NCBI GenBank assembly: GCA_964616495.1
Contig: CAZTRF010000001.1
Location: forward strand, 3,759 to 66,884
DNA: 63,126 nucleotides
Origin: an uncultured Muribaculaceae bacterium
GTDB lineage: Bacteria > Bacillota_I > Bacilli_A > RF39 > UBA660
Direction: 5' to 3'
This document shows, piece after piece, positions 5,401-6,519 of the stretch. The notes beneath the pieces were generated by a model, which was given only the letters and a program-made list of their open reading frames with translations, was not told the origin of the DNA and searched no databases. The position numbers and the translations under genes were made by a program. Position 1 is the first letter of the stretch; each line of letters begins with the position of its first letter.

Positions 5401-6519
5401 ATGGTAATAAAGGTTCCTCACGGTGATATTCATTTACCAACCTTTTTTCCTGACGGGACAAGAGGTGTTGTAAAATGTGTTGATGCTTGTGATTTAGAAG
5501 AAGCAGGTATTCCAGGTTTAGTAATGAATACATATCATTTGTTATCAAACCCTGGACCATATATTATCAAAAAAAATGGTGGATTACATAAATTTATTAA
5601 TTGGAAGAAACCTATTTTAACAGATAGTGGTGGGTTTCAGGTTTTTTCATTGATAAGCGAAAATTCCAAATATGGAGAAATAAGGGCAAATGAAATAATT
5701 TTTAGGCCTAATATGGATAAAGAAAAAATAATTTTTAGTCCTCAAAAATGTATTCAAAGTCAATTTGCTTATGGATCAGATATTATTATGTGTTTGGATT
5801 ATTGTACTCATCCAAATGATACATATGAAGTAAACCAAAAATCAACTGAAACAACTATAAGATGGGCCAAGAAATGTAAGGAAGAATATCTTAAATTAAT
5901 AGCCCAATCAAAGCAAGAAAAACTTCCTAAATTATTTGCTATAATTCAAGGTGGAGATAGTAAAGAATTACGTAAAATGTGTGCTGATGCCTTAAAGGAG
6001 ATTGGATTTGATGGTTACGGCTATGGCGGATGGCCATTAGATTCGGAAAATAAATTGATTGAAGATATTTTAAAATACACGGCATCTTTAATGCCTGACG
6101 AAACTCCAAAATATGCAATGGGTGTAGGGAAACCAGATGATATAGTAAAATGCTATAAAATGGGATATAATTTATTTGATTGTGTTATTCCAACAAGAGA
6201 AGCACGTCATAATAGGTTATATGTATTTAATGATAGATATGAGTCTTTAGGTGATATTAATTTAGATGATGAAGATTTTTACAAAAATTATTATGTTTTA
6301 GATGATAGTCACCGCTGTGAAACTGCACCTATTTCGAAAATATGTGATTGTTATACTTGTAGAAATTATACTAGAGCATATATTCGCCATTTGTGTTCTA
6401 TAAATGAGTCATTAGGATTTCGTTTAGCAACTATTCACAATTTACGATTTTATAGTCAATTAATGGAGTTACTAAGAAAGGAAGAAGAAAAATGTGCGCC
6501 AAAGCTATTGAAGAAATAA
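5401..6519 (+). CDS. Divergent tRNA-guanine transglycosylase (TGT) family paralog
   Basis: Conserved TGT motifs are present: [38 protein letters not shown], the Zn site [17 protein letters not shown] and IHNLRFY. The selectivity loop reads GYGGWPLDS, whereas the canonical copy at 49813 reads SIGGTSVGE. Confidence 0.8.

What the first reader, a model, noticed from the sequence alone, without database searches (positions are those of the whole stretch)
5401..6519. Second TGT-family enzyme with intact catalytic and zinc sites but a rewritten substrate-selectivity loop
Both TGT copies in the window keep the conserved sites:
- the catalytic Asp motifs TDSGGFQ and LFDCV
- the CxCxxC...H zinc site

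In the canonical copy (49813-50931) the loop that selects preQ1 versus queuine reads GGTSVGE; in Z. mobilis TGT it is GGLAVGE, as I recall. In the paralog it reads GGWPLDS. The FDEC motif becomes LDYC, and the N-terminal FMPVGT becomes FFPDGT.

The paralog therefore looks active but should bind a different base or a different nucleic-acid target. DpdA (DNA) and archaeosine TGT are precedents for such retargeting.
Basis: partly seen in the sequence, partly recalled or inferred. Interest (0 to 1): 0.6.

Follow-up and report, generated by a model that had tools for sequence, protein, structure and literature searches.

The report
Rmt-coupled second TGT base-exchange enzyme
The second TGT gene is real and looks active, but it is not a queuosine enzyme: it belongs to an uncharacterised branch of base-swapping enzymes almost always encoded right in front of a ribosome (16S rRNA G1405) methyltransferase, including the clinical aminoglycoside-resistance genes rmtB2, rmtD, rmtE and rmtG, so it probably acts on ribosomal RNA, which has not been tested.

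Summary
ORF 5401-6519 is a 372-aa TGT-family protein, 39% identical to the canonical Tgt at 49804-50931. It keeps the catalytic Asp residues, the guanine-face ligands, the zinc site and the dimer residues. Its specificity loop reads GGWPLDS.

The loop is a family signature. In 28 relatives against 75 canonical Tgt, L231W, A/S232P, V233L, G234D, V45D and loss of the invariant E235 separate the groups cleanly, and the relatives form their own clade (SH-aLRT 98).

The gene is translationally coupled to an Rmt/FmrO-type 16S rRNA m7G1405 methyltransferase (6492/6519-7265).
- This methyltransferase follows directly in 11 of 13 non-plasmid loci.
- RsmI (16S C1402) often lies upstream.
- On clinical elements, 52-65% identical 'tgt' genes precede rmtB2, rmtD1, rmtG and rmtE.
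- In about 800 sampled genomes of two classes, the two genes occur in the same four genomes and, at the thresholds used, in no others.

The genome makes queuosine through canonical Tgt, QueA and QueH.

Best reading: a non-queuosine RNA base-exchange enzyme working with the methyltransferase, probably at the 16S decoding site. The target and the base are inferred.

The scan had already noted this pairing on other DNA. The literature I could search mentions the plasmid 'tgt' only as an ORF.

The parts
5327..5354 (+). Promoter-like site (TTGACT, 16 nt, TG-TAGTAT) in the 77-nt gap between the ABC-F gene and the TGT paralog. A GGGGGG Shine-Dalgarno-like run follows before the ATG at 5401.
   Evidence: This is a consensus match only; promoter-like sites in this AT-rich region are no more frequent than in shuffles.
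5401..6519 (+). TGT2: a TGT-family base-exchange enzyme of the Rmt-associated subfamily. Catalytic D75, D133 and D260, Q183, G209/G210, M240 and zinc ligands C315/C317/C320/H346 are kept. The loop is G209-G210-W211-P212-L213-D214-S215. About 18 N-terminal and 20 C-terminal residues of canonical Tgt are missing, and there is an insertion of about 25 aa before the zinc site.
6492..7265 (+). Rmt/FmrO-type 16S rRNA (guanine1405-N7) methyltransferase homologue. It overlaps the end of TGT2. Its start is either ATG 6492 (28-nt overlap, AGGAAG upstream) or ATG 6519 (TAATG overlap).
   Evidence: Pfam FmrO 119.4 bits. NF000466 248 bits against a cut-off of 250, best subtype RmtE. Full-length match to RmtB, ArmA, Sgm and RmtC structures. 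Sequence. It is the only FmrO gene in the genome.
7266..13289 (+). Six tightly packed downstream genes: ABC ATPase (7266-8273), sugar-type solute-binding protein (8270-9493), two permeases (9456-10367, 10351-11151), a PHP/HisJ-like phosphoesterase (11141-12469) and an APH-fold kinase (12471-13289). They are local to this genome and not part of the conserved pair.
   Evidence: No homologues beside TGT2 in the other loci.
13269..13307 (.). Perfect 18-bp palindromic hairpin at the end of the gene string (terminator-like).
3677..5323 (+). Ribosomal-protection-type ABC-F ATPase directly upstream. It is an accessory gene in this genus.
   Evidence: NF000355 428 bits against a cut-off of 380. Only 1 of 4 same-genus genomes has a hit, at 33% identity.
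49804..50931 (+). Canonical tRNA-guanine(34) transglycosylase Tgt, given for comparison. Its loop is GGTSVGE and it groups with Bacilli/Erysipelotrichaceae Tgt.
   Evidence: TIGR00430 510.9 bits; tree; 391 bits to E. coli TGT.
43684..44694 (+). QueA, the next step of the queuosine pathway, near the canonical tgt. It shows that the housekeeping pathway is served by the other copy.
   Evidence: G000:C1:47442-48452, converted to window coordinates

Best explanation
ORF 5401-6519 encodes an intact member of a distinct, widespread and uncharacterised branch of the TGT superfamily, called TGT2 here. It is not the queuosine enzyme. The canonical Tgt at 49804-50931, with QueA and QueH, does that job.

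TGT2 is co-transcribed and translationally coupled with an Rmt/FmrO-type 16S rRNA m7G1405 methyltransferase. The two genes are inherited as a unit in Bacillota and Latescibacterota. They also travel together on the ISCR/IS91- and IS26-flanked cassettes that carry rmtB2, rmtD1, rmtG and rmtE. RsmI or RsmH (16S C1402) is often in the same operon.

Shown:
- The covalent-catalysis residues (Z. mobilis D280, D102), the guanine Watson-Crick-face ligands (D156, Q203, G230), the stacking Met260, the zinc site and the dimer aromatics are kept.
- The Leu231/Ala232-Glu235 peptide switch, which lets Tgt bind first guanine and then preQ1, is abolished. Residue 232 is Pro, which has no amide H, and Glu235 is lost.
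- The residues around the 7-substituent are bulkier or acidic (Trp231, Leu233, Asp234), and Val45 is Asp.

Inferred:
- TGT2 still exchanges a guanine-type base by the TGT mechanism, but in the RNA that its partner methylates. The most likely site is at or beside G1405 in helix 44 of 16S rRNA.
- A small N7-modified or N7-lacking guanine, such as cationic m7G, is a plausible ligand, either leaving or entering.

My odds:
- A non-queuosine RNA base-exchange enzyme functionally tied to the methyltransferase: about 0.7.
- The target is the 16S decoding site: about 0.45.
- The pocket is specific for m7G: about 0.25.
For: Identity and integrity. AF2 model with pLDDT 91.1 and pTM 0.90. TM 0.84-0.87 to T. 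maritima and Z. mobilis TGT.

Separate family:
- Relatives at 60-72% identity are abundant, while the genome's own canonical Tgt is 39%.
- In the tree, 28 TGT2 rows form one clade (SH-aLRT 98) and 38 canonical Tgt lie on the other side of a branch with support 100. The window's canonical Tgt sits with Bacilli.
- The canonical Tgt scores higher against human QTRT1 (297 bits) than TGT2 does against any bacterial TGT (260 bits).

Signature columns, 28 TGT2 against 75 canonical:
- V45D: D in 28/28 TGT2, V in 74/75 canonical.
- L231W: W in 27/28.
- A/S232P: P in 28/28.
- V233L: L in 24/28 TGT2, V in 75/75 canonical.
- G234D: D in 24/28 TGT2, G in 75/75 canonical.
- E235: E in 75/75 canonical, variable in TGT2.
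The role of these residues is described in PMC3660597 and reflected in PDB mutant titles.

Coupling:
- The two genes overlap in the window.
- FmrO lies directly downstream in 11 of 13 non-plasmid loci. One exception, L002, has FmrO elsewhere in its genome; the genome of the other, L098, was not searched.
- Among about 400 sampled Clostridia, FmrO is in 3 genomes and TGT2 is in the same 3, adjacent in each.
- In 401 genomes of the window's own class, both occur only in this genome.
- RsmI lies directly upstream in L001, L098, L099 and L100/L101.
- Pairwise identities of TGT2 and its partner correlate (Spearman 0.52). TGT2 (60-78% identity) is more constrained than the methyltransferase (33-59%).

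Clinical cassettes:
- tgt-rmtB2, tgt-rmtD1, rsmH-tgt-rmtG and a truncated tgt-rmtE2 on plasmids.
- IS91-rsmI-tgt-rmtE in a P. aeruginosa assembly.

The queuosine pathway is served elsewhere: QueA and QueH are present, and QueC, QueF and QueT were not found.
Against: - No experiment exists for any member. The target RNA, the position and the base are all inferred from gene linkage and pocket residues.
- rmt genes confer resistance without an intact tgt. rmtE2 plasmids carry a 5'-truncated copy, and from general knowledge armA, rmtA and rmtC have none. TGT2 is therefore not needed for m7G1405 formation.
- The protein passes NCBI's Tgt equivalog cut-off (344.7 against 306.75), and PTR-x-AR, which I recall as anticodon-loop contact residues, is still present. 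A tRNA substrate cannot be excluded.
- No fused TGT2-FmrO protein was found in this branch.
- The pocket reading rests on an ungapped alignment of the loop. BLAST placed two compensating 4-residue gaps there. I had no model coordinates to inspect.
- The genome has no 7-deazaguanine synthesis genes, so it offers no clue to the incoming base.
Confidence: 0.6

Rival explanations
1. An ordinary second Tgt: a redundant tRNA-guanine(34) transglycosylase that inserts preQ1, as PGAP annotates the family.
For: It scores above the TIGR00430 equivalog cut-off. All catalytic and zinc residues are present. Database names for relatives say 'tRNA guanosine(34) transglycosylase Tgt'.
Against: - The peptide switch needed for guanine-then-preQ1 binding is gone: Pro232, and no Glu235.
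- It forms a separate clade with a long stem.
- Every genome examined that has TGT2 also keeps a canonical Tgt.
- It is linked to Rmt, never to queA or other que genes in the loci read.
Confidence: 0.07
2. A tRNA-directed enzyme with a different base or position, such as a salvaged purine analogue or another guanine in tRNA. Its linkage to Rmt would reflect co-regulation of translation-apparatus modifiers, not a shared substrate.
For: All characterised RNA-acting TGTs work on tRNA (general knowledge). The dimer residues and the PTR-x-AR motif are kept. rmt works without tgt.
Against: The linkage is to three different enzymes of the same 16S helix-44 site: Rmt at G1405, and RsmI and RsmH at C1402. 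No tRNA-modification gene recurs beside it. The ribose-34 pocket residue Val45 is changed to Asp in all members.
Confidence: 0.17
3. A non-exchanging accessory protein: TGT2 binds the flipped-out G or m7G, or the 30S subunit, as a chaperone, specificity factor or protector for the methyltransferase, without turnover.
For: The coupling is tight and co-inheritance is long-standing. Eukaryotic QTRT2 is a precedent for a non-catalytic TGT-fold partner (general knowledge; PDB names).
Against: The nucleophile Asp, the general acid/base Asp and all base-binding residues are invariant in 28/28 members. This is not expected for a purely structural role; as I recall, QTRT2 has lost them.
Confidence: 0.08
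4. A small-molecule or drug-related role: TGT2 acts on a free nucleoside, nucleotide or aminoglycoside-like compound as part of antibiotic production or resistance islands.
For: - In A. chartisolvens the pair lies among radical-SAM, DegT aminotransferase, glycosyltransferase and TylF-like genes.
- The window has an ABC-F gene, a sugar-type importer, a phosphoesterase and an APH-fold kinase around it.
- L097 has a nucleotidyltransferase upstream.
Against: These neighbours differ from locus to locus and are not homologous; only Rmt and RsmI recur. The zinc subdomain and dimer interface typical of RNA-binding TGTs are kept.
Confidence: 0.05
5. A DNA 7-deazaguanine inserter of the DpdA type.
For: DpdA shows that TGT folds can be retargeted to DNA (general knowledge).
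Against: NF041059 DpdA scores 18.8 bits against a cut-off of 200. No dpdB/dpdC-like or preQ0 synthesis genes lie nearby or were found in the genome. The PADLOC library was not scanned.
Confidence: 0.02

Closest known systems
The 'tgt' / 'putative tRNA ribosyltransferase' ORFs upstream of rmtB2, rmtD1, rmtG and rmtE on clinical Enterobacterales and Pseudomonas elements (e.g. pKP13f rsmH-tgt-rmtG)
   Same: - They fall in the same clade (SH-aLRT 98) and share 52-65% identity.
- They have the same GGWPL(D/G) loop, Pro232, Asp45 and intact catalytic and zinc residues.
- They occupy the same position directly upstream of, and often overlapping, an Rmt-type G1405 methyltransferase.

   Different: The window's copy is chromosomal in a 1.0-Mb low-GC Bacillota genome and has host-like codon composition. 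Its partner is not one of the named Rmt types (248 bits against the family cut-off of 250). The plasmid ORFs have only been noted in passing and never studied (PMC3904158, PMC9311965).
Bacterial tRNA-guanine(34) transglycosylase Tgt (EC 2.4.2.29; Z. mobilis, E. coli, T. maritima structures)
   Same: - The fold matches (TM 0.84-0.87).
- It shares the nucleophile and acid/base Asp residues, Asp156/Gln203/Gly230 for guanine recognition, Met260, the CxCxxC...H zinc site and the dimer aromatics.
- It passes the TIGR00430 cut-off.

   Different: - It has 34-39% identity.
- It lacks the Leu231/Ala232-Glu235 switch, Val233/Gly234 and Val45.
- Both termini are shorter, and there is an insertion of about 25 aa before the zinc site.
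- It forms a separate clade.
- It is never next to que genes and always occurs in addition to a canonical Tgt.

Eukaryotic QTRT1/QTRT2 queuine tRNA-ribosyltransferase
   Same: It belongs to the same superfamily. It scores 189-193 bits to QTRT1.
   Different: Queuine use needs an enlarged pocket, Val158 and Gly233 (PMC3660597). TGT2 has Cys and Leu there and a Trp at 231, so its pocket is smaller. There is no QTRT2-like partner.
Archaeosine TGT (ArcTGT/TgtA) and DpdA
   Same: They are precedents for retargeting a TGT fold to another position or nucleic acid.
   Different: The HMM scores are far below the cut-offs: 83.9 against 350, and 18.8 against 200. There are no PUA or C-terminal domains and no dpd or preQ0 genes.
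Rmt/Arm/Kgm 16S rRNA m7G1405 methyltransferases (RmtB, ArmA, Sgm, RmtC): the partner gene's family
   Same: The partner at 6492/6519-7265 aligns over its full length to RmtB (129 bits), ArmA, Sgm and RmtC.
   Different: Methylation of G1405 by this particular protein, and any resistance it gives, are untested. It scores 2 bits below NCBI's family cut-off.

Membership tests
Bacterial Tgt, tRNA-guanine(34) transglycosylase (TIGR00430) | HMM score above the curated equivalog cut-off | tested here: met
   344.7 bits against a cut-off of 306.75. The canonical copy scores 510.9.
Bacterial Tgt, tRNA-guanine(34) transglycosylase (TIGR00430) | Catalytic Asp280 nucleophile, Asp102, Asp156, Gln203, Gly230, Met260 and the Cys3His zinc site (Z. 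mobilis numbering) | tested here: met
   D260, D75, D133, Q183, G210, M240 and C315/C317/C320/H346 are invariant in 28/28 family members.
Bacterial Tgt, tRNA-guanine(34) transglycosylase (TIGR00430) | Leu231/Ala(Ser)232 peptide switch backed by Glu235, with Val233 and Gly234 (GGL[AS]VGE) | tested here: not met
   TGT2 reads GGWPLDS. Pro232 is present in 28/28. Glu235 is invariant in 75/75 canonical Tgt and variable in TGT2. The mechanism is described in PMC3660597.
Bacterial Tgt, tRNA-guanine(34) transglycosylase (TIGR00430) | Groups with canonical Tgt in a phylogeny | tested here: not met
   It forms a separate clade with SH-aLRT 98. The canonical set lies on the other side of a branch with support 100.
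Bacterial Tgt, tRNA-guanine(34) transglycosylase (TIGR00430) | It is the Tgt of the queuosine pathway of its genome | tested here: not met
   A canonical Tgt plus QueA and QueH are present elsewhere. TGT2-bearing genomes also keep a canonical Tgt.
Bacterial Tgt, tRNA-guanine(34) transglycosylase (TIGR00430) | Exchanges G34 of tRNA(Asp, Asn, His, Tyr) for preQ1 | not testable with these tools
   This needs an enzyme assay or complementation.
Rmt-associated TGT subfamily (plasmid 'tgt' of the rmtB2/D1/E/G cassettes) | Same clade and signature (FFPD[GA]T, GGWP, loss of Glu235) | tested here: met
Rmt-associated TGT subfamily (plasmid 'tgt' of the rmtB2/D1/E/G cassettes) | Encoded directly upstream of an Rmt/FmrO-type methyltransferase | tested here: met
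   Overlap in the window. Found in 11 of 13 other chromosomal or metagenomic loci and on 5 clinical elements.
DpdA (DNA 7-deazaguanine transglycosylase) | NF041059 score above cut-off, with dpdB/dpdC and preQ0 genes nearby | tested here: not met
   18.8 bits against 200. The neighbours are unrelated. QueC and QueF were not found.
Archaeosine TGT (TIGR00432) | HMM score above cut-off; C-terminal C2/PUA domains | tested here: not met
   83.9 bits against 350. The protein has 372 aa with no extra domains.
Eukaryotic-type queuine TGT (QTRT1-like, or bacterial queuine-salvaging Tgt) | Enlarged pocket: Val158 and Gly233 | tested here: not met
   TGT2 has Cys135 and Leu213 at these positions, plus Trp211. 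The criterion comes from PMC3660597.
Rmt family 16S rRNA (G1405-N7) methyltransferase (the partner gene, NF000466) | HMM score above the curated cut-off; full-length similarity to solved Rmt/Arm enzymes | tested here: inconclusive
   248 bits against a cut-off of 250. It aligns over its full length to RmtB at 129 bits, and to ArmA, Sgm and RmtC. Activity is not testable here.

The most novel reading that the evidence does not exclude
TGT2 is the first base-exchange (transglycosylase) enzyme that acts on ribosomal RNA. Together with the Rmt-type methyltransferase, it rewrites G1405, or a neighbouring guanine, in the decoding site of 16S rRNA. For example, it could use N7-methylated guanine as an activated leaving base or as the entering base. 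If so, the m7G1405 seen in clinical aminoglycoside resistance would be one half of a native two-enzyme pathway whose second half (tgt) still rides on the rmtB2, rmtD, rmtE and rmtG cassettes.
Probability: 0.35. Interest if true: 0.9.

Novelty: new variant of a known kind. Interest (0 to 1): 0.68.

Why it matters
All known TGT-fold enzymes that act on RNA modify tRNA. A branch tied to 16S rRNA decoding-site methyltransferases would add a new chemistry, base replacement, to ribosome modification.

The same gene family sits intact next to four of the acquired 16S methyltransferase genes that cause pan-aminoglycoside resistance. It is annotated as an ordinary Tgt, and I found no study of it. Knowing what it does could explain three things:
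- where these resistance genes come from;
- what their native role is;
- whether the partner changes the fitness cost or the spectrum of the methylation.

The finding also flags a systematic mis-annotation: the family passes NCBI's Tgt equivalog cut-off although its specificity residues differ.

Tried and rejected
1. The search for related loci on genome contigs with the family alignment.
2. A search for fused TGT2-FmrO proteins with a chimeric query. No fused protein was among the top hits, so this branch gives no Rosetta-stone support. Earlier scan notes report fusions in other branches, which I did not verify.
3. My memory that actinomycete gentamicin/fortimicin clusters contain a 'tRNA ribosyltransferase' gene. 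Paper searches gave nothing usable, so I dropped it.
4. The 2024 MMBR review on 7-deazaguanines (PMC10966956) is not held. I therefore cannot exclude that the subfamily is mentioned there.
5. Is the downstream sugar-type importer part of the conserved unit? An SBP_bac_1 gene also follows rmtE in L100, but it is not detectably homologous to the window's. I rejected this as a conserved feature.
6. Recent horizontal transfer. GC and GC3 of TGT2 and FmrO are host-like, so any transfer is old. What remains is a patchy distribution.
7. The CPR sister clade (L010-L013; loop GAR[HP][IV]D, two of the four zinc-less). No FmrO in those genomes, and the neighbours are mostly housekeeping genes. It is not informative for function.
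9. Model coordinates are not exposed, so pocket geometry could not be measured and no docking of guanine, m7G or preQ1 was possible.
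Full report
**Observation.** The window holds two TGT-family genes. ORF 5401-6519 (+, 372 aa) and ORF 49804/49813-50931 (+) both match Pfam TGT, at 345.7 and 519.2 bits. They are 39% identical.
- LTDSGGFQV in both.
- LFDCV in both.
- CDCxxC...H in both.
- GGWPLDS against GGTSVGE.
- LDYC against FDEC.
- FFPDGT against FMPVGT.

The paralog has its own promoter-like site (5327-5354) and a strong ribosome-binding site. 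It starts about 18 residues later and ends about 20 residues earlier than canonical Tgt. It also carries an insertion of about 25 residues before the zinc site. These are family traits, not truncations.

**It is not the queuosine enzyme.**
- The genome (1.0 Mb, 93% complete) has exactly these two TGT genes.
- QueA lies at window 43684-44694, near the canonical tgt, and QueH is present.
- QueC, QueF and QueT were not found. Queuosine is therefore made from a salvaged precursor through the canonical copy.
- That copy scores 510.9 bits on TIGR00430 and 391 bits against E. coli TGT. In the tree it sits with Bacilli and Erysipelotrichaceae, as expected for vertical descent.

**A separate, coherent family.**
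- The big protein collection holds many proteins 60-72% identical to the paralog.
- In a maximum-likelihood tree of 70 sequences, 28 such proteins form one clade (SH-aLRT 98). All 38 canonical Tgt, from more than ten phyla, lie on the other side of a branch with support 100. A small CPR-type group is sister to the family.
- The split is deep. The window's canonical Tgt is closer to human QTRT1 (297 bits) than the paralog is to any bacterial TGT (260 bits).
- ArcTGT and DpdA are far away: 83.9 bits against a cut-off of 350, and 18.8 against 200.
- The AF2 model is confident (pLDDT 91.1, pTM 0.90). It superposes on T. maritima and Z. mobilis TGT with TM 0.84-0.87.

**What is kept and what is rewritten (28 family members against 75 canonical Tgt; Z. 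mobilis numbering).**

Invariant in both groups:
- D102, D156, Q203, G229 and D280; G230 and M260 are near-invariant (one exception each).
- The zinc ligands C318, C320, C323 and H349.
- The dimer residues Y330 and H333 are kept, and position 326 stays aromatic or His.

Fixed differences:
- V45 becomes D (28/28).
- E157 becomes Y, H or M.
- L231 becomes W (27/28).
- A/S232 becomes P (28/28).
- V233 becomes L.
- G234 becomes D.
- L259 becomes A.
- E235, invariant in 75/75 canonical enzymes, becomes variable.

PMC3660597 describes why these positions matter. With guanine bound, the Leu231/Ala232 peptide exposes its NH. With preQ1 bound, it flips to expose its carbonyl, and in both states Glu235 holds it. 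Cys158 and Val233 set the size of the pocket for the 7-substituent. A proline at 232 has no amide hydrogen, and Glu235 is gone, so this two-state switch cannot operate. Trp, Leu and Asp make the 7-side of the pocket tighter and more acidic. That is the opposite of the enlargement seen in queuine-using enzymes. Inference: the protein still binds a guanine-type base and still does covalent catalysis, but not the guanine-to-preQ1 exchange. Caveat: this rests on an ungapped loop alignment, and BLAST put compensating gaps there. I could not inspect coordinates.

**The decisive clue is the neighbour.**
- The next gene (6492 or 6519 to 7265) overlaps the end of the paralog, by 28 nt or as TAATG.
- It is a full-length homologue of the 16S rRNA m7G1405 methyltransferases. 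It scores 119 bits on Pfam FmrO and 248 bits on NF000466 (cut-off 250), with RmtE as best subtype. RmtB, ArmA, Sgm and RmtC are its PDB matches.
- It is the only FmrO gene in the genome.

The same order, TGT2 then FmrO, recurs:
- L001.
- A. chartisolvens (L003).
- An Oscillospiraceae MAG (L008).
- A Latescibacterota MAG (L009).
- G409 and G499.
- L096, L097, L099 and L100.

That is 11 of 13 non-plasmid loci. One exception, L002, has FmrO elsewhere in its genome. The genome of the other exception, L098, was not searched.

The genome samples give the same picture:
- In an even sample of about 400 Clostridia genomes, FmrO is in three. TGT2 is in the same three, adjacent in each, and each also keeps a canonical Tgt.
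- In 401 genomes of the window's own class, both genes occur only in this genome.
- RsmI (16S C1402 2'-O-methyltransferase, confirmed by TIGR00096) lies directly upstream in L001, L098, L099 and L100/L101.
- Pairwise identities of TGT2 and its partner correlate across 12 loci (Spearman 0.52). TGT2 (60-78% identity) is more conserved than the methyltransferase (33-59%), so it is under strong purifying selection.

**Clinical cassettes.** A tblastn search of 72,556 plasmids found 'tgt' genes 52-65% identical to the paralog, while canonical tgt genes reach only 39-41%. They lie directly upstream of:
- rmtB2 in Providencia, with a metallophosphoesterase gene between them.
- rmtD1 in K. pneumoniae.
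- rmtG in pKP13f, as rsmH-tgt-rmtG with 4- and 8-nt overlaps.
- rmtE2, as a 5'-truncated copy.

A P. aeruginosa assembly carries IS91-rsmI-tgt-rmtE with an intact tgt (P0083, 64% identical). These plasmid genes fall inside the TGT2 clade. [quoted passage not shown] I found no functional study. Earlier notes of this scan had already flagged the TGT-Rmt pairing on other genomes. I re-tested the plasmid and RsmI claims here.

**Local setting.** Downstream of the pair, six more tightly packed genes end at a perfect hairpin (13269-13307):
- an ABC ATPase;
- a sugar-type binding protein;
- two permeases;
- a PHP/HisJ-like phosphoesterase;
- an APH-fold kinase.

Upstream lies a ribosomal-protection-type ABC-F gene that is not conserved within the genus. 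None of these recurs beside TGT2 elsewhere. I treat them as local context, possibly an island aimed at ribosome-targeting antibiotics. Base composition of TGT2 and FmrO is host-like, so the patchy distribution reflects old transfer or repeated loss.

**Most likely mechanism.**

Shown:
- The TGT active site is intact.
- The preQ1/guanine switch is lost.
- Coupling to a G1405 methyltransferase is near-obligate and long-standing.
- The gene is frequently joined by the C1402 methyltransferases of the same helix.

Inferred:
- TGT2 exchanges a guanine-type base in the RNA its partner methylates, most likely at or next to G1405 of 16S rRNA.
- A methylated N7 removes the acceptor that the missing NH would have bound. 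It also adds a positive charge that Trp211 and Asp214 could accommodate, and it makes the base a good leaving group. So m7G is an attractive ligand. This last step is speculation (about 0.25).

Evidence against: rmt genes give resistance without tgt, so TGT2 is not required for methylation. The family still passes the Tgt equivalog cut-off and keeps residues that I recall as anticodon-loop contacts, so a tRNA substrate remains possible.

**Rivals.**
- Ordinary redundant Tgt: 0.07.
- tRNA enzyme with another base or position: 0.17.
- Non-catalytic partner: 0.08.
- Small-molecule role: 0.05.
- DpdA-like: 0.02.

**Limits.**
- The one genome-contig scan was swamped by canonical Tgt.
- No fusion proteins were found in this branch.
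- A key review is not held.
- No eukaryotic, archaeal or DpdA sequences could be put in the tree, so their distance is judged from HMM and phmmer scores only.

Noticed in passing
window 3677-5323: A ribosomal-protection-type ABC-F ATPase (NF000355, 428 bits) lies directly upstream of the pair. Only 1 of 4 same-genus genomes has any hit, at 33% identity. The best relative is 51% identical, in another genus. It appears to be an accessory gene.
   Followed up: partly
window 13500-14957 and about 54077-55450: There are two RelA/SpoT homologues. One is a short 485-aa copy (HD, RelA_SpoT and TGS domains, no C-terminal part) right after the operon. The other is a full-length copy of about 718 aa further on. 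A few relatives also carry two copies.
   Followed up: partly
window 7266-13289: A sugar-type ABC importer, a PHP/HisJ-like phosphoesterase and an APH-fold kinase (weak hits to APH(2'') and fructosamine kinase) are packed behind the methyltransferase gene. The rmtB2 cassette also has a phosphoesterase, of a different fold, between tgt and rmtB2. In L100 an unrelated SBP_bac_1 gene follows rmtE. This may be coincidence.
   Followed up: partly
L003 (Anaerobacterium chartisolvens QPJT01000027.1), 1-12888: Here the TGT2-FmrO pair sits inside what looks like an aminoglycoside or aminosugar biosynthetic cluster. The cluster has three radical-SAM genes (one B12-binding), a TylF-like methyltransferase, a D-Ala-D-Ala-ligase-like gene, two DegT aminotransferases and a glycosyltransferase.
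   Followed up: no
L101 (P. aeruginosa GCA_003835445.1, NSPO01000054.1) and L100: L101 carries IS91-rsmI-tgt-rmtE with an intact tgt. An identical tgt protein occurs on a metagenome contig (L100) in a longer array: a restriction-modification pair, a second divergent FmrO-like gene, rsmI, tgt, rmtE and an ABC binding protein. That array may be close to the source of the rmtE cassette.
   Followed up: partly
L010-L013 (Moraniibacteriota, Falkowbacteria, a 'Gammaproteobacteria' MAG): This is a sister clade of TGT2 with the loop G-A-R-[HP]-[IV]-D. Two of the four members lack the zinc cysteines and histidine. Those genomes have no FmrO. In L010 the next gene is a U32 peptidase, a family that as I recall includes RNA hydroxylation factors.
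   Followed up: partly
window 47147-49759: An 870-aa protein with a signal-anchor-like N-terminus and long glycine-rich repeats (GGGGG, GGAGG) lies directly upstream of the canonical tgt.
   Followed up: no
L097, 3166-3999: A Pol-beta-type nucleotidyltransferase (NTP_transf_2) gene abuts the start of TGT2 in this locus. It could be an aminoglycoside nucleotidyltransferase-like gene.
   Followed up: no
window 49813-50931: The canonical Tgt has Thr at the Leu231 position (GGTSVGE). This is a minority state, seen in 5 of 75 canonical Tgt sampled.
   Followed up: no
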